64,000 nucleotides of DNA from an uncultured Flavobacteriaceae bacterium (GCA_964389205.1 CAYMDH010000003.1:55702-119701); one strand, 5' to 3'; shown: positions 2,968 through 10,758, counted from the first letter of the stretch. Notes: generated from the sequence alone by a model not told the origin. Made by a program: numbers and translations.

Positions 2968-3798
2968 ATGATAGTTATAGGAGAATATAATACCTTAGAA
3001 ATATTAAGAGATACAAGCCCTGGATTGTTTTTAGGAGATCAAGAAGGAAATGAAATACTACTTCCTAATAAATACGTACCAGAGAATTTTGAAATAGGTG
3101 ATGAGATCGAAGTTTTTTGTTATTTAGATCATGAAGAGCGCCCAGTGGCAACTAGTTTAATCCCTTTCATTACTTTAAATAACTTTGCATTGCTTAAGGC
3201 GGTATCTGTTACACATATAGGAGCTTTTATGGATTGGGGATTGGAAAAGCATTTATTTGTTCCTTTTAAAGAACAAGCTGCAAAAATGGTTGAAGGAAAA
3301 TGGTATTTAATTCATTGTTATCTTGATAAAGAGACAGAACGACTAGTAGGTTCAAGTAAAACTAATCGATTTATAAACAATGAAGAATTAAGTGTAGAAA
3401 GATTTCAAGAAGTAGATTTAATAATTTCCAGACATACAGATTTGGGAGAAGAAGTTATTATCAATAAGAAGCATAAGGGTATTTTATACAAAAATGAATT
3501 GTATAGAACATATAGTTTAGGAGAATCATTAAAAGGATATATTAAAAAAATAAGAGACGATCATAAAATTGATGTTAGCTTACAACCTATCGGGTATAAA
3601 AATATAGAACCTTCATCACAAATAATATTAGATAAACTTAAGAATAATAACGGTTTTGTTCCTCTTCATGACAAGAGTAATCCAGAGGATATAAAACATG
3701 TGCTAGAGATGAGTAAAAAGAGTTTTAAGAAAGCAATAGGATCTTTGTACAAGCAGAAAATTATTCGTATTGAAAAAAATGGTATTTATTTAAATTAA
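2968..3798 (+). CDS. S1-like RNA-binding domain protein (CvfB/YitL family)
   Basis: 276 aa with repeated S1-like modules and a C-terminal winged-helix-like segment (KKSFKKAIGSLYKQKII). Confidence 0.7.
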   Translation: MIVIGEYNTLEILRDTSPGLFLGDQEGNEILLPNKYVPENFEIGDEIEVFCYLDHEERPVATSLIPFITLNNFALLKAVSVTHIGAFMDWGLEKHLFVPFKEQAAKMVEGKWYLIHCYLDKETERLVGSSKTNRFINNEELSVERFQEVDLIISRHTDLGEEVIINKKHKGILYKNELYRTYSLGESLKGYIKKIRDDHKIDVSLQPIGYKNIEPSSQIILDKLKNNNGFVPLHDKSNPEDIKHVLEMSKKSFKKAIGSLYKQKIIRIEKNGIYLN

Positions 3799-4145
3799 AA
3801 CCTAGGGATACAAAAGCCATATCCACCACTACCAGGTATATAGTATGGACCTCCTTCAGAGGCTTTATAAACAGTATTAATGTTTTTCTGTTTTGTAGAA
3901 GTTGATTTCACTTTTATTTTTGGAATATTTGTATTTATTTCTAGACTTTTTAATGCACTTTTTTGTGTATTAGCAGTAGCCATATTGACTGTTTTTTTAT
4001 CGGAAGATAGAATACTGAAATTTGCTTTTTGAGTTGAACTATTTAAAAGCACTTTGCTTGATGCAATATTTTTAGTGCGTTTTATGTCTTGAGCATAAGA
4101 AAATGTAGAAACCCCAAAAAATAATATAAAAATATAAAACCTCAT
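3795..4145 (-). CDS. hypothetical secreted protein
   Basis: Signal-peptide-like N-terminus (MRFYIFILFFGVSTFSYAQ). No recognisable domain. Confidence 0.45.
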   Translation of the reverse strand: MRFYIFILFFGVSTFSYAQDIKRTKNIASSKVLLNSSTQKANFSILSSDKKTVNMATANTQKSALKSLEINTNIPKIKVKSTSTKQKNINTVYKASEGGPYYIPGSGGYGFCIPRF

Positions 4146-5710: not shown

Positions 5711-6319
5711 ATGCCTTTTATAGAAGAAGATAACTTATTAGACCTATATAAAAAGATAGATAAATCTGAAGCTAACAACTTGCGGCTTCAAGATCAGATA
5801 TCATATAAAAATAGAGAAGTTACAAAAAGCGTAAAGCAGCGAAATTTTTTTGTAGTTGCAGGTGTAATATCTGTAATTATTTGTGCCATTGTTATTTCTT
5901 TTTCATTAGGCGTTAGAAATACGGTTAACAATTTAAAAGCAACTAGTGCAGACAAAGTAACAATTCCGATAGATAGTATTGAATCTCTTAAAAATAAAGC
6001 AAGAGTACTAGAAACTCAAAATACGCAATTAAATGCGGTAAGAGATTTTTACTTAGCAAAAAACTTATTAGATGGTAAAAAGATTTACACTATTCAATTA
6101 AGTGCTATAGAACAAAGTCATCTTTCTTTATTACCACTTTCTTTTAGTAACTTAAGATTGATAAAAAATAATGAATACCTATCATTATCATTAGGAGCTT
6201 TTGAAACATTAAAAGAAGCGCAAACTTTTCGATATGAACTTGTAAAGGTAGGATTTGATGAGGTCTTTATAATATCATATAAAGAAGGGAAGAGAATTCA
6301 GATTGAAGAGACTTATTAA
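5711..6319 (+). CDS. membrane-anchored protein with a SPOR-like C-terminal domain
   Basis: One TM helix (FFVVAGVISVIICAIVISF) and a coiled-coil region. The C-terminus (YTIQLSA...LSLGAFETLKEAQTF...GFDEVFII) resembles a SPOR repeat. Confidence 0.45.
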   Translation: MPFIEEDNLLDLYKKIDKSEANNLRLQDQISYKNREVTKSVKQRNFFVVAGVISVIICAIVISFSLGVRNTVNNLKATSADKVTIPIDSIESLKNKARVLETQNTQLNAVRDFYLAKNLLDGKKIYTIQLSAIEQSHLSLLPLSFSNLRLIKNNEYLSLSLGAFETLKEAQTFRYELVKVGFDEVFIISYKEGKRIQIEETY

Positions 6320-6320
6320 A

Positions 6321-7217
6321 ATGATAAAAATTAAGGCTTGGTTTTCTGCCGCCAGATTGCGCACATTGCCACTATCTGTTTCGGGAATTATAGTAGGCGG
6401 GGCATTAGCAACTTCAAACGATAATTTTGACACTACAATTTTTATATTAGCAATACTAACTACCATAGGTTTTCAAGTCATATCAAATTTTTCAAATGAT
6501 TATGGAGACGGTGTTAAAGGTACTGATAATGAAGATAGAATTGGCCCAGAACGTGCATTACAAAGCGGTATAATTTCTCCTTTAGAAATGAAAACAGCGA
6601 TTATTGCGACCACCATTATTACATTATTAATAGCAATACTTTTAATATATATATCTTTTGGTACAGCATCTTTAAATTATTTTTTAATTTTCTTATTACT
6701 TGGTATAGGGGCTATTATAGCTGCGATTAAATATACCGTAGGGAAAGATGCGTATGGATATCATGGTTATGGAGATTTATTTGTTTTCATTTTTTTTGGT
6801 TTAGTAAGTGTTTTAGGAAGTTATTTTTTGTTTACTAAAGAATTAAGCTTAGCTATTGTATTACCAGCTGTTACTATAGGTCTATTAAGCGTAACAGTAT
6901 TGAATCTTAATAATATGAGAGATCGAGAGAGTGATAAAAAAGCAGGAAAGAAAACATTAGTTGTTAAAATAGGAGCATCGTTAGCTAAAAAATATCATTT
7001 TGTAATCGTCATTCTGGCAATGCTATCAACGCTAGGGTATTCAATATTAATACAAGCAACAGAGCCTATTAACTATCTTTATGTAATAGCCTATATACCT
7101 TTAATCTTCCATTTGGCTAAGGTTTATAAAATAGAAACCCCTAAAGAGTTTGATCCAGAGTTAAAGAAAATAGCCTTAACAACCTTCATATTTGCGATCT
7201 TGTTTTCTTTTAGTTGA
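6321..7217 (+). CDS. menA: 1,4-dihydroxy-2-naphthoate polyprenyltransferase
   Basis: Polytopic UbiA-family protein with NDYGD and D-rich motifs (NNMRDRESDKKAGKKTL). The ATG at 6321 is 1 nt after the upstream stop; the ORF-track start at 6303 is a TTG overlapping that gene. Confidence 0.9.
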   Translation: MIKIKAWFSAARLRTLPLSVSGIIVGGALATSNDNFDTTIFILAILTTIGFQVISNFSNDYGDGVKGTDNEDRIGPERALQSGIISPLEMKTAIIATTIITLLIAILLIYISFGTASLNYFLIFLLLGIGAIIAAIKYTVGKDAYGYHGYGDLFVFIFFGLVSVLGSYFLFTKELSLAIVLPAVTIGLLSVTVLNLNNMRDRESDKKAGKKTLVVKIGASLAKKYHFVIVILAMLSTLGYSILIQATEPINYLYVIAYIPLIFHLAKVYKIETPKEFDPELKKIALTTFIFAILFSFS

Positions 7218-7264: not shown

Positions 7265-8038
7265 TTGAACGACGCCATTAGAATACTCATAGTAGAAGAT
7301 AATGTAATTATAGCAGATGATATTCAAGCTATATTAGAAGATATTGGTTATGAGATCGTTGATAATGTAATAGATTTTGAACAAGCCACTGAAGCTTTAA
7401 AAAATAATGAAGTAGACCTTGTTTTAATTGATATTATACTGGCTTCTGAAAAAACAGGAATAGATTTAGGGCATCATATCAGATCTAATTATGATATTCC
7501 GTTTATTTTTGTGACTTCAAACTCAGATAAAGCAACTGTTGAAATAGCTAAAGAAGTAAAACCAAATGGATATTTAGTGAAGCCATTTGAACAACAAGAT
7601 TTATATACTTCTATAGAAACAGCATTATCTAGTTATACTTATGGAGAAAGCCAAGAAGATAAGAAAGCTAAAGAGACATCTACAAATGTTAGTGATTCTG
7701 ATAGACAGAATGTAACCAATGCAGTTTTAAAAGATTCTATTTTTGTAAAGAAAAATAACCTTTACTATAGAATAAAATTTGATGATATTCAATTTATCAA
7801 AGCAGATAATGTTTATTTAGAAGTAAATACGGCTGATAAAACATTTTTAGTGCGATCTGCATTAAAAGATTATTTAGATAAACTTCCTTCTAATAATTTT
7901 TATAGAGCACATAAATCTTACATTGTTAACCTATCTCATATTCAAGCTGTTAATAGTAAGGATATCATGATAAAAGATGAATTGATTCCGATTTCTAAAG
8001 ATTTCAGAGAATTTATTCTATCAAGTTTAAATTCTTAA
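7265..8038 (+). CDS. two-component response regulator, REC + LytTR DNA-binding domain
   Basis: The REC domain has ILIVEDN, DLVLIDI and KP. The C-terminal LytTR domain has IQFIKADNVYLEV...FYRAHKSYIVNL. The start is TTG. Confidence 0.9.
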   Translation: MNDAIRILIVEDNVIIADDIQAILEDIGYEIVDNVIDFEQATEALKNNEVDLVLIDIILASEKTGIDLGHHIRSNYDIPFIFVTSNSDKATVEIAKEVKPNGYLVKPFEQQDLYTSIETALSSYTYGESQEDKKAKETSTNVSDSDRQNVTNAVLKDSIFVKKNNLYYRIKFDDIQFIKADNVYLEVNTADKTFLVRSALKDYLDKLPSNNFYRAHKSYIVNLSHIQAVNSKDIMIKDELIPISKDFREFILSSLNS

Positions 8039-8066
8039 AAAGTTATTAACAACATATTAACAAGTG

Positions 8067-8132
8067 TTCACCACAATTAATAAACGATTCACAACAATCT
8101 TTTCATTATTCCTTTAGACCCTCATATATTTA
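8067..8132 (+). promoter_or_regulatory. module 1: direct repeats TTCACCACA (8067) and TTCACAACA (8088), plus -7 box TATATTTA (8125)
   Basis: The two 9-mers start 21 bp apart. The -7-like box starts 29 nt after the last base of repeat 2. Modules 2 and 3 have the same geometry. Confidence 0.5.
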
Positions 8133-8137
8133 CATTG

Positions 8138-8240
8138 TATTTGTTGAGAAACAAATCTTTAGTCCACGGTCCCAAATGTTATCATGTTAAATATAAATGA
8201 TTGAAAAAACGCTTTAAGTATATACTTAAAGCGTTTTTTA
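8138..8240 (+). ncRNA. candidate small RNA 1 (about 100 nt, 5' end approximate)
   Basis: Downstream of module 1. A 5' hairpin ATTTGTT-GAGA-AACAAAT spans 8139-8156. A perfect 10-bp terminator stem (8210-8219 / 8224-8233) is followed by six T. No ORF exceeds 6 codons on this strand. Confidence 0.4.
8204..8239 (+). terminator. rho-independent terminator (A-run / perfect stem / T-run)
   Basis: AAAAAA CGCTTTAAGT atat ACTTAAAGCG TTTTTT. Confidence 0.75.
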
Positions 8241-8318
8241 ATTCTAAATACATTATAATGCATACAAACTGGTGAGAAAGGGATAAGATAAATCTGTATA
8301 AATCATTTTTTTATTGTT

Positions 8319-8384
8319 TTCACAACACTTTCAGTTAGTTACACAACAAAAATTATTTTCTGATTGAAAAACTCCCTATGTTTG
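8319..8384 (+). promoter_or_regulatory. module 2: direct repeats TTCACAACA (8319) and TACACAACA (8340), plus -7 box TATGTTTG (8377)
   Basis: The repeats are 21 bp apart. A perfect TAnnTTTG match starts 29 nt after the last base of repeat 2. Confidence 0.55.
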
Positions 8385-8389
8385 GATAG

Positions 8390-8493
8390 TGAAAATATTT
8401 TAGTTTTTATAGTGTTATTTATTACCCAGATCTCATTTTGTTATTTAATGTTTAGAATAAGTCCCGAACCCTACTTTTCGGGACTTATTTTTT
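8390..8493 (+). ncRNA. candidate small RNA 2 (about 100 nt, 5' end approximate)
   Basis: Downstream of module 2. It ends in a 13-bp perfect hairpin AATAAGTCCCGAA / TTCGGGACTTATT (8456-8489) plus a T-run. The only ORF (18 codons) runs through the terminator. Confidence 0.4.
8456..8493 (+). terminator. rho-independent terminator
   Basis: A 13-bp perfect stem, an 8-nt loop and a T-run. Confidence 0.8.
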
Positions 8494-8618
8494 ATATTAA
8501 TTAACATTAACATTTTAGAACTTTTATTTTTAATTTATTCATAATAACTATAAACCTAGTGATACGGTAAAGTTAAATAAAGAAGATTTTTGGAAGGAAA
8601 ACATGCATCTTTGACTTT

Positions 8619-8684
8619 TACGCAACAAAAAAAACAATTTACACAACAAAAATTTACCTATAGATTATAAATAGTATAGGTTTA
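8619..8684 (+). promoter_or_regulatory. module 3: direct repeats TACGCAACA (8619) and TACACAACA (8640), plus -7 box TAGGTTTA (8677), upstream of the kinase gene
   Basis: Same 21-bp and 29-nt geometry. The 16-mer TTACACAACAAAAATT is identical to the one in module 2. Confidence 0.5.
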
Positions 8685-8823
8685 CAACTAGATTAATAAT
8701 TAAAGTATTATGTTTTTTAATGATTTTATGTAAAGAAAATATTAAAAACTAATTGTTTATTAAAAACATATTTTGATTTTTTGATCGTTAAAAAAGAAAT
8801 ACTATATATCATATCCTTGGAAT

Positions 8824-10758
8824 ATGAATTTAAATAATAAAATATTAAGTGCAGCGATACTAAATTTCTTCGTGTTTATTAGTGGATGGTCCCAAACCAC
8901 TAATGACCCTCTTTTGAAGTTTCAAGAAGCGAATTCAATCGATAAACGATTTGAAATTTTCTTCAATAATGACGATAAATACGCTGTAAAATCTGCTTAC
9001 AAATGGTTAGATAAAGTATCTGAATATGCCGCTATTGCAGATAAATCAAAAGATTCTATAAGTATATTCAAATACAGAACCATTTTATCTCAAATACATC
9101 TAGATTTAGGCGATTACAAGAAAAGTGCCTTATTAGCAGAAAAGCTTTATAAAAAAGAAAAAAAAATAGACCTACCTGTTCGAAAAGCACTGTTCAAAAT
9201 ATTGGATGAATCATATGCAGTGCTAGGATTGTTTGAAAAACAATTAGAAGTGCGAAAAGAAATGAAGAAAAGTGGAGAACAGATTAAATTATATGATATC
9301 TATTCTAATTTAGGATTGCATAGGCAAGCTATGATGGATTATATAATTGAAGTTGGATCTACCGTAGATAAAAATAACTATTTTAGTGTAGCTGAATATC
9401 AAAATAATTTAGCGACCTTTTTAAGAAAAGACGGATCGACATATTCTGCTAAGAAAAAAATTGATACTGCTTTAAGTTATATCGACTTATATCTAAAAGA
9501 AGTTAATTTTAAAGATGCTCCAGAGGCTTTTAGAGATGCTGTTTTCTTAAAAGGTCTTATACAAGGAAATTTAGGTAAATGTCATATAGTACAGGAAGAA
9601 TTTGAAAAAGCAATCCCTTTGTTAGAAGCAGGAGTTTCTTCTAGTAAAGATTATGATAAAGGTAAATTTTCTTCTAGCGTAATAGGCATGTGGATAGATT
9701 TGGCAGATTCGTATTTACAATTAAATAATTCTCGTATTGCAAAATCATATTTGGATAGTATTTCATTGGTTAATGAAAACACTTATGTAGTTAATTATAA
9801 TCGATTGTTAGCAGAATATTATTTACAACAAGGAGATACAGATTCTGCTTCTTATATATTTAAAGAATATATTAAATTAAAAGACTCTGTAGATACAAAT
9901 AATAGAAAGAAAGAGCTTTTAGGTCAATTAGTGAATTTTGATTTAGAGCATCAAAAAGGAATTATCCTAAAGCAACGATTAGATTTAGAAGAAACAAAAG
10001 AACAGGTATTGCAACGCGACAAAAAAATAAACTATAGTATTATAGCATTATTATTTACCCTTGTAGGATTGGGAGCTGTAGCATACGCTTATTTTAAAAG
10101 TGTCAAGAACAAAAAACTAATTGAAGATCAAAATAAAATTATAGAAGCTTCACTTGTAGAAAAAGACTCATTGTTGAAAGAGATTCACCATAGAGTGAAA
10201 AACAATTTACAAATGGTATCGAGTCTTCTAAGCATGCAAACTAAGAATACGCGTAGTCAAGAAGCAATAGACGCTTTAGAAGAAGGAAAGAGTCGAGTAA
10301 AAGCAATGGCGCTTATTCACCAAAAATTGTATCAAAACGAAGGACTTTCTGTGATCGAAATGCAAGGTTATATAGAGTCATTAGTGAATAGTATACAATC
10401 CGTTTATAAAAAAGGAGGCCACGATGTGAATATCAATATAGATGCAGAAGGAGCAGAGTTAGACATTGATAGAGCAATACCTATAGGATTAATCTTAAAT
10501 GAATTAGTATCGAATTCATTTAAATATGCTTTTCCAAACAAAGAAGAAGGACAAATTTATATCAATATAAGAAAAGACGGAGACCTAGGTTTCTTTGAAT
10601 ATACAGATGATGGCAAAGGACTTCCGGAAGATATAGAAGAGCAAAGCAGTACTTCTATGGGAATTAAGTTAATACAACGATTAGTGAATCAATTGCGTTC
10701 AAACCTTAATATAGATAAAGATGCAAAAGGCGCTCGATTCTGGTTTGACTTTAGCTAA
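8824..10758 (+). CDS. sensor histidine kinase: signal peptide, TPR-like periplasmic region, one TM helix, HisKA_2 + HATPase_c
   Basis: H-box EIHHRVKNNLQMVSSLL (HisKA_2 type). N-box LNELVSNSFKYAF and G-box DDGKGLP. TM helix INYSIIALLFTLVGLGAVAYAYF. Confidence 0.85.
   Translation: MNLNNKILSAAILNFFVFISGWSQTTNDPLLKFQEANSIDKRFEIFFNNDDKYAVKSAYKWLDKVSEYAAIADKSKDSISIFKYRTILSQIHLDLGDYKKSALLAEKLYKKEKKIDLPVRKALFKILDESYAVLGLFEKQLEVRKEMKKSGEQIKLYDIYSNLGLHRQAMMDYIIEVGSTVDKNNYFSVAEYQNNLATFLRKDGSTYSAKKKIDTALSYIDLYLKEVNFKDAPEAFRDAVFLKGLIQGNLGKCHIVQEEFEKAIPLLEAGVSSSKDYDKGKFSSSVIGMWIDLADSYLQLNNSRIAKSYLDSISLVNENTYVVNYNRLLAEYYLQQGDTDSASYIFKEYIKLKDSVDTNNRKKELLGQLVNFDLEHQKGIILKQRLDLEETKEQVLQRDKKINYSIIALLFTLVGLGAVAYAYFKSVKNKKLIEDQNKIIEASLVEKDSLLKEIHHRVKNNLQMVSSLLSMQTKNTRSQEAIDALEEGKSRVKAMALIHQKLYQNEGLSVIEMQGYIESLVNSIQSVYKKGGHDVNINIDAEGAELDIDRAIPIGLILNELVSNSFKYAFPNKEEGQIYINIRKDGDLGFFEYTDDGKGLPEDIEEQSSTSMGIKLIQRLVNQLRSNLNIDKDAKGARFWFDFS

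What the first reader, a model, noticed from the sequence alone, without database searches (positions are those of the whole stretch)
8133..8493. Two roughly 100-nt terminator-capped units without ORFs between regulator and kinase: candidate LytTR-controlled sRNAs
Seen directly:
- Modules 1 and 2 are each followed about 75-80 nt later by a strong intrinsic terminator. One has a 10-bp perfect stem plus T6 at 8204-8239. The other has a 13-bp perfect stem plus T-run at 8456-8493.
- This predicts two same-strand transcripts of similar size (about 8138-8240 and 8390-8493).
- The longest same-strand ORFs are 6 codons (unit 1) and 18 codons (unit 2), and the 18-codon ORF runs through the terminator stem.
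- Unit 1 begins with a 7-bp GAGA-loop hairpin (8139-8156).

Inference: these are non-coding RNAs whose synthesis depends on the neighbouring two-component system. This is formally analogous to AgrA-P3-RNAIII in staphylococci, here in a Bacteroidota genome and wedged inside a menaquinone gene neighbourhood. I cannot tell from memory whether they match a known Rfam family such as Flavo-1.
Basis: partly seen in the sequence, partly recalled or inferred. Interest (0 to 1): 0.75.

Follow-up and report, generated by a model that had tools for sequence, protein, structure and literature searches.

The report
Conserved regulator-linked small RNAs in Flavobacteriaceae
The gap between a response-regulator gene and its kinase gene holds two roughly 100-nt non-coding transcription units from an undescribed small-RNA family that is conserved next to this signalling pair across marine Flavobacteriaceae and probably carries its output.

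Summary
Both terminators, the 5' GAGA-loop hairpin and the lack of meaningful ORFs are at the stated coordinates.

- Each unit sits behind a fixed promoter module: two TT(T/A)CACAACAA half-sites 21 bp apart, 39 nt upstream of a Bacteroidetes -7 box (TAnnTTTG).
- A third copy of the module lies before the kinase gene.
- Across 80 species-level genomes plus this window, every hit to the module lies in the regulator-kinase spacer, on the sense strand.
- Downstream bodies are conserved without any conserved ORF on either strand. Terminator stems change by compensatory substitutions.
- A covariance model built only from other genera finds unit 1 (43 bits, E about 1e-5), so it belongs to a family with the core CCCAAAUCUUAUCAUU.
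- Unit 2 is a sibling found only in this window, Leptobacterium and strain R38.
- No Rfam family matches, and I found no paper describing the system.

Not shown: transcription, dependence on the regulator, and targets.

Verdict: a new small-RNA family of a known kind (sibling small RNAs driven by a two-component system). It works like AgrA-RNAIII, VirR-VR-RNA or CiaR-csRNA but is not a member of those families.

The parts
7265..8038 (+). Response regulator gene (receiver domain plus LytTR DNA-binding domain, 257 aa)
   Evidence: Pfam Response_reg 3.5e-20 and LytTR 3e-18. Orthologues are 72-81% identical in 80 Flavobacteriaceae genomes.
8067..8097 (+). Promoter module 1: half-sites TTCACCACAA (8067-8076) and TTCACAACAA (8088-8097), 21 bp start to start
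   Evidence: Read. Position-weight-matrix (PWM) hit of 24.4 bits. Conserved in L001, L002 and L020.
8125..8132 (+). -7 box of promoter 1 (TATATTTA), 39 nt after the window that holds half-site 2
   Evidence: Geometry of the TAnnTTTG box at -12 to -5 comes from PMC9723704.
8137..8239 (+). Unit 1, predicted small RNA of about 103 nt: 5' hairpin 8139-8156, C-rich core GGTCCCAAATGTTATCATG 8168-8186, terminator 8204-8239
   Evidence: Fold. Covariance model R1, built from other genera, hits 8156-8239 at 43.2 bits, E 9.3e-6. Five of 10 terminator pairs change on both sides. No conserved ORF.
8318..8349 (+). Promoter module 2: half-sites TTTCACAACA (8318-8327) and TTACACAACAA (8339-8349)
   Evidence: 1 mismatch; 0.04 expected by chance. 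PWM 43.4 bits.
8377..8384 (+). -7 box of promoter 2 (TATGTTTG, exact TAnnTTTG)
   Evidence: Conserved in L002.
8389..8493 (+). Unit 2, predicted small RNA of about 105 nt: ATAGTGTTA 8409-8417, CCCAGATCTCATTTTGTTATTTAATG 8426-8451, terminator 8456-8493
   Evidence: Fold. The body is near-identical in L001 and L002 but carries independent 1-nt indels, and 4 of 13 terminator pairs change on both sides. Not detected by models R1 or R2.
8618..8684 (+). Promoter module 3: half-sites TTACGCAACAA (8618-8628) and TTACACAACAA (8639-8649), with -7 box TAGGTTTA (8677-8684); it drives the kinase gene
   Evidence: 0 mismatches. PWM 38.3 bits. Conserved in L002 and L001.
8689..8823 (+). Predicted 5' leader of the kinase mRNA (about 135 nt, no significant structure)
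   Evidence: Fold z -0.98. No terminator lies between promoter 3 and the ATG.
8824..10758 (+). Sensor histidine kinase (signal peptide, TPR region, one membrane span, HisKA_2 and HATPase_c domains; 644 aa)
   Evidence: Pfam HisKA_2 7.7e-27, HATPase_c 4e-9, weak TPR hits. It lies downstream of the regulator gene in nearly all of the 80 loci.

Best explanation
Units 1 and 2 are independent, non-coding small-RNA genes. They belong to a set of sibling small RNAs that sit between the LytTR response regulator and its TPR/HisKA_2 kinase in marine Flavobacteriaceae.

Proposed mechanism:
1. The kinase senses an unknown envelope signal and phosphorylates the regulator.
2. A regulator dimer binds the two direct repeats, centred near -67 and -46.
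3. This recruits sigma-A RNA polymerase to a promoter that has a good -7 box but no conserved -33 element.
4. Three promoters fire. Two make terminated RNAs of about 100 nt, and the third makes the kinase mRNA, which gives positive feedback.
5. The RNAs then act through an exposed C-rich core, CCCA(A/G)AU(C/G)U plus a U/A-rich extension. Most likely they base-pair with mRNAs encoded elsewhere in the genome.

Shown here: the anatomy, conservation, non-coding character, terminator covariation, family membership of unit 1, and the exclusive link of the promoter module to this locus.

Inferred: transcription, binding by this regulator, the feedback loop, and action in trans.
For: Promoter module
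- The repeat pair matches twice in 64 kb against 0.04 expected.
- An 84-nt PWM (half-site, 21 bp, half-site, 39 nt, -7 box) scanned over 80 loci of about 12.7 kb plus the 64-kb window, both strands, gives hits only in the regulator-kinase spacer, all on the + strand. Shuffled sequence gives 0 hits.
- A metagenome scan for the exact consensus returned 78 stretches. Every one with a good PWM score lies next to the regulator and/or kinase, except three at contig ends where the flanks are missing. The low-scoring ones are unrelated sequences.
- The spacing equals the 9 bp + 12 bp geometry of ComE sites (PMC4005675). AgrA likewise binds paired direct repeats upstream of P2 and P3 (PMC4227749).

The RNAs
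- Terminated units of 52-111 nt (median 80) were found in 48 of 78 spacers.
- Conserved cores are CCCAAATCTTATCATT (type A) and TTTTTTCATTTTCATATAGTGTTCTCG (type B). Some genera carry both fused in one RNA.
- In the type A terminator, 9 of 11 pairs show compensatory changes. In the window's own units the figures are 5 of 10 and 4 of 13.
- Model R1, built without the window's clade, hits unit 1 at 43.2 bits and finds 34 further copies in metagenome contigs.
- There is no conserved ORF on either strand, and 1-nt indels fall in conserved bodies.

Context
- The order unknown gene, menA, regulator, small RNAs, kinase, (SDR), menC, CAAX protease is kept in essentially all 80 loci.
Against: - No expression data of any kind. 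Promoters, start sites and terminators are predictions.
- Binding by this regulator is inferred only from adjacency and repeat geometry.
- No target was found. Complementarity to the translation-start regions of the roughly 49 genes called in the window is no better than for shuffled RNAs. Neighbouring genes in 40 genomes show no consistent pairing. Recurrent complementary 9-10-mers lie inside coding regions.
- Unit 2 has only two homologues and is not recognised by either family model.
- The unit 1 hairpin stem never varies apart from one U-A to U-G change, so it gives no covariation support.
- The 5' hairpin is present in only about half of type A members.
- Thirty of 78 spacers, mostly Maribacter, had no terminated unit by my criteria.
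- In this window no terminator separates the regulator's stop codon from unit 1, so unit 1 may also be part of the regulator's 3' UTR.
Confidence: 0.62

Rival explanations
1. The units are cis-acting parts of kinase expression. They would be promoter-terminator cassettes whose read-through sets kinase mRNA levels by attenuation or insulation, or unit 1 would simply be the 3' UTR and terminator of the regulator gene. The short RNAs would then be by-products with no function in trans.
For: All units lie on the same strand, directly upstream of the kinase gene. In the window there is no terminator between the regulator's stop codon at 8038 and terminator 1. In a TARA metagenome clade the small RNA stays with the kinase even though the regulator gene is not adjacent.
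Against: The kinase has its own full promoter module downstream of the last terminator, so read-through is not needed. An attenuator does not need its own activator-dependent promoter for each copy. The bodies carry a sequence core conserved across genera while copy number varies from 0 to 4. No alternative anti-terminator fold is evident, because the bodies are unstructured.
Confidence: 0.14
2. The RNAs are real and depend on the regulator, but they act by binding or sequestering a protein or another RNA (a sponge or decoy) rather than by pairing with mRNAs.
For: No mRNA target signal was found in the DNA available. Multiple copies sharing a short motif would suit titration. Bacteroidota lack Hfq and ProQ (general knowledge), and RbpB-type proteins are reported to bind small RNAs in Bacteroides (title and abstract of PMC11697453, listed).
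Against: The shared motif occurs once per RNA, not in repeats. The layout of an unpaired conserved core followed by a terminator is the usual one for pairing small RNAs. Only 64 kb of this genome could be searched, so the negative target result is weak.
Confidence: 0.12
3. The units encode short peptides. LytTR systems of Firmicutes usually sit beside pheromone or bacteriocin precursor genes driven by the same repeats, and these units could be the equivalent.
For: That arrangement is typical of agr, com, blp and pln loci (general knowledge). An 18-codon ATG ORF exists in unit 2, with 17- and 21-codon counterparts in L002 and L001 that begin MF(R/K/E).
Against: That ORF runs through the terminator stem, and its products diverge after about 7 residues. 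Unit 1 homologues have ORFs of 4-17 codons with no shared frame, and L020 lacks the ATG. Many family members have no ATG at all on the sense strand. The antisense MKMKK frames in type B end after 6-29 unrelated residues. Indels are not multiples of three.
Confidence: 0.04
4. The units are decaying duplicates of the kinase promoter region with no function of their own.
For: Copy number varies between genera, and some spacers lack recognisable units. L001 carries repeat insertions in the spacer.
Against: A 16-nt core and the promoter geometry are kept across genera in which the neighbouring proteins are only about 50% identical. The sequence between the motifs is free to vary. Terminators are maintained by compensatory change.
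Confidence: 0.03

Closest known systems
AgrA - P3 - RNAIII (Staphylococcus)
   Same: A LytTR response regulator binds paired direct repeats just upstream of a weak promoter and drives a regulatory RNA next to its own operon. It also feeds back on its own signalling genes (PMC4227749).
   Different: RNAIII is 514 nt (general knowledge), highly structured, and encodes delta-haemolysin (PMC4227749). Here the RNAs are about 100 nt, largely unstructured, non-coding, multi-copy and co-directional. There is no Rfam RNAIII match. The kinase is a TPR/HisKA_2 type, not an AgrC-type peptide receptor, and no pheromone gene is evident.
VirR/VirS - VR-RNA, VirT, VirU (Clostridium perfringens)
   Same: A LytTR-family regulator with two repeat boxes directly activates several regulatory RNA genes, and their number differs between strains (PMC2838878). 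VirR's LytTR domain is from my own knowledge.
   Different: The VirR boxes differ in sequence and spacing. Those RNAs are scattered around the genome and unrelated in sequence, and VirR also drives toxin genes. Here all detected sites lie in one spacer.
CiaRH - csRNAs (Streptococcus) and LuxO - Qrr1-5 (Vibrio)
   Same: Two-component systems whose strongest promoters drive several homologous, terminator-capped small RNAs of roughly 90-150 nt. Copy number varies between species. For LuxO the direct output is essentially only small RNAs (general knowledge).
   Different: Different regulator families (OmpR-type CiaR; sigma-54-dependent LuxO), different phyla, and no sequence similarity (no Rfam hits). 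Those genes are dispersed rather than clustered between regulator and kinase.
RsaE/RoxS (Firmicutes)
   Same: A short RNA with exposed C-rich motifs under two-component control, linked to respiration and redox metabolism (general knowledge). Here the locus is embedded in menaquinone genes.
   Different: There is only a chance-level Rfam alignment driven by the terminator (20 bits against a gathering score of 79, E 1.3). RsaE's C-rich motifs target Shine-Dalgarno sequences, which Bacteroidota largely lack.
Known Bacteroidota small RNAs (GibS, Rfp18, Flavo-1 motif)
   Same: Same phylum. Sigma-A -7 box promoters and intrinsic terminators (PMC7366714; PMC9723704).
   Different: No sequence or model match. 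None is reported as driven by a LytTR two-component system. In F. psychrophilum, menA is not followed by this regulator-kinase pair.

Membership tests
Rfam Flavo-1 or any other Rfam 15 family | Covariance-model score at or above the family's gathering threshold | tested here: not met
   0 matches in the 64-kb window and 0 in 11 related loci. In the permissive search the best hits are alignments of 14-24 bits, mostly to the terminator hairpins, far below gathering scores.
LytTR-activated promoter (AgrA/ComE/VirR type) | Two imperfect direct repeats of about 9-10 bp, start-to-start spacing of about 21 bp | tested here: met
   Three modules with exact 21-bp spacing. The spacing is invariant in 66 non-redundant promoters from other genomes. 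ComE geometry is 9 bp + 12 bp (PMC4005675).
LytTR-activated promoter (AgrA/ComE/VirR type) | Repeats at a fixed position upstream of a core promoter that is suboptimal without an activator | tested here: met
   Fixed 39 nt from the half-site 2 window to the -7 box. Information content is near zero where a -33 element would sit.
LytTR-activated promoter (AgrA/ComE/VirR type) | Cognate LytTR regulator encoded nearby, with its own signalling genes among the targets | tested here: met
   LytTR regulator immediately upstream. Module 3 lies before the kinase gene. The association holds in 74 of 78 spacers.
LytTR-activated promoter (AgrA/ComE/VirR type) | Demonstrated binding and activation by the phosphorylated regulator | not testable with these tools
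   Needs gel-shift or footprinting assays and reporter or deletion experiments.
Trans-acting, terminator-capped bacterial small RNA | Own promoter and intrinsic terminator bounding 50-300 nt | tested here: met
   Predicted starts at 8137 and 8389. Terminators end at 8239 and 8493.
Trans-acting, terminator-capped bacterial small RNA | No conserved reading frame | tested here: met
Trans-acting, terminator-capped bacterial small RNA | Conserved, accessible seed region | tested here: met
   The CCCAAAT(C/G)TTATCAT core is near-invariant across genera. It is predicted mostly unpaired: the unit 1 body alone folds no better than shuffles, z +0.55.
Trans-acting, terminator-capped bacterial small RNA | Complementary target mRNAs | tested here: inconclusive
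   No signal above shuffled controls in the window or in neighbouring genes. Only a small part of the genome was available.
Trans-acting, terminator-capped bacterial small RNA | A stable transcript is detected | not testable with these tools
   No transcriptome for any carrier was available. The F. psychrophilum dataset lacks the locus.
New 'type A' family (core CCCAAAUCUUAUCAUU) defined here | Significant score to model R1, which was built from 25 sequences of other genera | tested here: met
   Unit 1 (8156-8239): 43.2 bits, E 9.3e-6 in 539 kb. Its counterparts in L002, L001 and L020 also hit.
New 'type A' / 'type B' families, applied to unit 2 | Significant score to model R1 or R2 | tested here: not met
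   Unit 2 is absent from the hit lists at E <= 1. It shares only the promoter module, a CCCAGATCT variant of the core, and an ATAGTGTT motif.

The most novel reading that the evidence does not exclude
The direct regulon of this very highly conserved two-component system may consist only of small-RNA genes plus its own kinase. That would be a LuxO/Qrr-style circuit with RNA-only output, the first in Bacteroidota. Because the system is fixed inside the menaquinone gene cluster, the sibling RNAs would be the route by which an envelope TPR sensor adjusts respiration or quinone-linked metabolism after transcription, in a phylum that lacks Hfq and ProQ.
Probability: 0.2. Interest if true: 0.75.

Novelty: new member of a known kind. 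Interest (0 to 1): 0.6.

Why it matters
Small-RNA regulation in Bacteroidota is poorly charted. As far as my literature searches reached, no flavobacterial small RNA has been tied to a defined signalling pathway.

This work provides:
- a family with clear boundaries and a recognisable promoter code;
- an obvious candidate regulator and sensor;
- dozens of natural variants, with copy number from 0 to 4 and separate, fused or rearranged cores.

Cultured carriers are available for testing, for example Leptobacterium flavescens KCTC 22160, Cellulophaga baltica, Sediminicola and Muriicola. The regulator is 72-81% identical across genera in which its kinase and menA are only about 50% identical. The whole arrangement stays locked inside the menaquinone cluster. 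Together these suggest an important, unstudied function in abundant marine polysaccharide degraders. The models and promoter matrix built here could seed an Rfam entry and a regulon search.

Tried and rejected
- **Rfam membership.** Gathering-threshold and permissive searches found nothing real.
- **Peptide-gene hypothesis.** Sense and antisense ORFs were enumerated in 70 units, and none is conserved.
- **Target search.**
  - Exact complementary 10-mers within each locus gave recurrent hits near locus position 3,900 and near menC. These lie inside coding regions, for example ...TDLGWEV..., far from start codons, so protein conservation explains them.
  - RNAduplex against the start regions of 49 window genes was no better than for shuffled RNAs.
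  - A small comparative test on 8 neighbouring gene families across about 40 genomes showed no consistent gain. The best was the SDR gene, at -1.75 kcal/mol and only 61% of cases better than shuffled.
- **Extra copies elsewhere.** R1 hits near position 3,300 in Maribacter loci turned out to be ordinary gene-end terminators. Core-motif searches of the window gave only chance-level matches outside unit 1.
- **Universal 5' hairpin.** Only about half of type A members have one. The window's hairpin stem shows no covariation.
- **Expression evidence.** The F. psychrophilum transcriptome atlas does not help, because that species lacks the locus at menA.
- **Unit 2 as a type B member.** Rejected by model R2.

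Full report
**What is in the window**

Positions 7265-8038 (+) encode a response regulator with a receiver domain and a LytTR DNA-binding domain. Positions 8824-10758 (+) encode a histidine kinase with weak TPR hits plus HisKA_2 and HATPase_c domains. Its translated sequence also shows a signal-peptide-like N-terminus and one hydrophobic span. The pair is flanked by menaquinone genes. A MenB-like ECH_1 protein, an unknown 202-aa protein and a UbiA-family MenA lie upstream. An SDR gene on the minus strand, a MenC-like enzyme and a CAAX protease lie downstream. The finding concerns the 785-nt spacer at 8039-8823.

**Checking the observation**

Both terminators are as described. Terminator 1 is a perfect 10-bp stem (8210-8219 with 8224-8233) followed by T6. 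Terminator 2 is a perfect 13-bp stem (8456-8468 with 8477-8489) followed by a T-run. The complete units fold much better than shuffles (z -5.1 and -4.5), but the bodies alone do not. The GAGA-loop hairpin at 8139-8156 is predicted. The longest ATG ORFs are 6 and 18 codons.

**Promoter architecture**

Each unit, and also the kinase gene, is preceded by two half-sites of the form TT(T/A)CACAACAA, spaced exactly 21 bp apart. The window that holds the second half-site starts exactly 39 nt upstream of a Bacteroidetes sigma-A -7 box:
- 8125-8132, TATATTTA
- 8377-8384, TATGTTTG
- 8677-8684, TAGGTTTA

That box occupies -12 to -5 in flavobacteria (PMC9723704). The predicted starts are therefore near 8137, 8389 and 8689, and the half-sites are centred near -67 and -46. 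No -33 element is conserved. That fits an activator-dependent promoter. Two direct repeats of 9-10 bp with a 21-bp period match the site layout described for the LytTR regulator ComE. AgrA likewise binds paired direct repeats (PMC4005675; PMC4227749).

**Related loci**

The regulator protein retrieved 80 species-level genomes, including Leptobacterium, strain R38, Ascidiimonas, Maribacter, Sediminicola, Cellulophaga, Muriicola, Eudoraea, Robiginitalea, Croceivirga, Pricia and Kriegella. Regulator identity is 72-81%.
- Nearly all keep the regulator, spacer (285-1817 nt), kinase order.
- The wider order (unknown gene, menA, regulator, kinase, (SDR), menC, CAAX protease) is also kept.
- I built an 84-nt matrix from 66 non-redundant promoters and scanned all loci and the whole window on both strands. 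Every hit of 18 bits or more lies in the spacer on the + strand. There are none elsewhere and none in shuffled sequence.
- An exact-consensus scan of metagenome contigs gave 78 stretches. All with a good matrix score lie beside the regulator and/or kinase, apart from three at contig ends where the flanks are missing. The low-scoring ones are unrelated, for example a 21-bp tandem array.

**What the promoters drive**

Downstream of the promoters lie terminated units of 52-111 nt, median 80. Two conserved bodies recur.
- Type A is a short 5' region, sometimes a 4-5-bp hairpin with differing stem sequences. It is followed by CCCAAATCTTATCATT and a terminator.
- Type B has the core TTTTTTCATTTTCATATAGTGTTCTCGTAAAAG followed by a terminator.
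- Sediminicola and Cellulophaga carry both cores fused in one RNA.
- Leptobacterium and Ascidiimonas have up to four units, some with CCCAAAUCU in a hairpin loop.

In the type A terminator, 9 of 11 pairs show compensatory changes. No ORF is conserved on either strand, and many units have no ATG. Model R1 found 34 more type A copies in metagenome contigs. Each lies just downstream of the module match.

**The window's own units**

*Unit 1.* It aligns with counterparts in R38 (L002), Leptobacterium (L001) and Ascidiimonas (L020).
- Conserved: the half-sites, the -7 box, the hairpin and GGTCCCAAAT(G/T)TTAT.
- Diverged: the spacer between half-site 2 and the -7 box, and the region after the core.
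- There is a 1-nt indel in the body.
- The terminator changes on both sides at 5 of 10 pairs.
- R1, built only from other genera, hits 8156-8239 at 43.2 bits, E 9.3e-6. Unit 1 is therefore a type A member with a longer 5' part.

*Unit 2.* It has close counterparts only in L002 and L001.
- The 45-nt core ATAGTGTTATT(T/A)ATT(A)CCCAGATCTC(A)ATTTTGTTATTTAATGTTT is nearly identical.
- It carries independent 1-nt indels, which rules out a reading frame across it.
- The terminator changes on both sides at 4 of 13 pairs.
- Neither R1 nor the type B model R2 detects it. I treat it as a clade-specific sibling.

**Mechanism**

The most economical reading is a circuit in which the phosphorylated LytTR regulator activates two or more small-RNA genes and its own kinase gene. 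The RNAs would then act through the exposed C-rich core.

I could not find targets. Local complementary matches are explained by coding conservation. Pairing energies against start regions are no better than for shuffled RNAs. With only 64 kb of this genome available, this negative result is weak.

Rivals, in the order I rate them:
- a cis role in kinase expression, or a regulator 3' UTR (no terminator separates the regulator's stop codon from unit 1);
- protein or RNA sequestration;
- peptide genes;
- decaying duplicates.

**Comparison with known systems and novelty**

No Rfam family matches the window or 11 related loci. Literature searches found nothing on this system. The F. psychrophilum atlas lacks the locus.

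The circuit works like AgrA-RNAIII, VirR-VR-RNA/VirT/VirU (PMC2838878), CiaR-csRNAs and LuxO-Qrr. It is not homologous to any of them.

I classify it as a new member of a known kind: sibling small RNAs driven by a two-component system. Its interest lies in the phylum, its breadth, the striking conservation of the regulator, and its fixed place inside the menaquinone cluster.

Noticed in passing
L001:6990-7660: In Leptobacterium flavescens the spacer carries an insertion of about 670 nt between small-RNA units 1 and 2. It holds two copies of a repeat of about 235 nt and CAACAAC-type microsatellites. This may be a small mobile or repeat element.
   Followed up: no
window 7265-8038 versus 8824-10758 and 6303-7217: The regulator is 72-81% identical across genera. 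Its partner kinase is only about 45-57% identical outside the window's closest relatives, L001 and L002 (73-76%), and MenA is mostly about 50-58% (up to 70% in the closest relatives). A response regulator this much better conserved than its neighbours is unusual.
   Followed up: partly
L142:10265-11032 (also L154, L093, L096, L139): In a TARA Oceans metagenome clade the type A small RNA and the kinase stay together. The upstream gene there is a LexA-like repressor (HTH_3 plus Peptidase_S24), not the LytTR regulator.
   Followed up: partly
window 8159-8176 and 8879-8896: There is a same-sense 18-nt repeat: TTAGTCCACGGTCCCAAA in unit 1 and TTAGTGGATGGTCCCAAA within the kinase's signal-peptide codons. 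Because it is same-sense it cannot be a pairing site. Its meaning is unknown and it may be chance.
   Followed up: no
L001:7985-8089, L001:8215-8321, L020:7369-7475: A third unit type places CCCAAAUCU in the loop of a GAUAGU/ACUAUC hairpin. This suggests the C-rich motif is kept exposed by different structural means in different siblings.
   Followed up: partly
L092 and L137 (metagenome contigs): These contigs carry long tandem arrays of a 21-bp unit (AAGCGCACTGTTACACAACAC) that matched the half-site pattern by chance. They are unrelated to the locus.
   Followed up: no
L044, L049, L050, L059, L062, L065 spacers (about 6950-7170): Several Maribacter species have the strong promoter module but no type A or B body and no clear terminator. 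Instead a conserved stretch of about 200 nt, containing AAAAGTACGTAGAACACGCTTTTT and then a single half-site TCACAACAAAAATTTAGTAGAATC, runs into the kinase gene. This may be a leader or a different RNA.
   Followed up: no
window 5711-6319: A 202-aa ORF between the MenB-like and MenA genes has no Pfam or NCBIfam hit. It is nevertheless conserved at this position in 76 of 80 loci.
   Followed up: no
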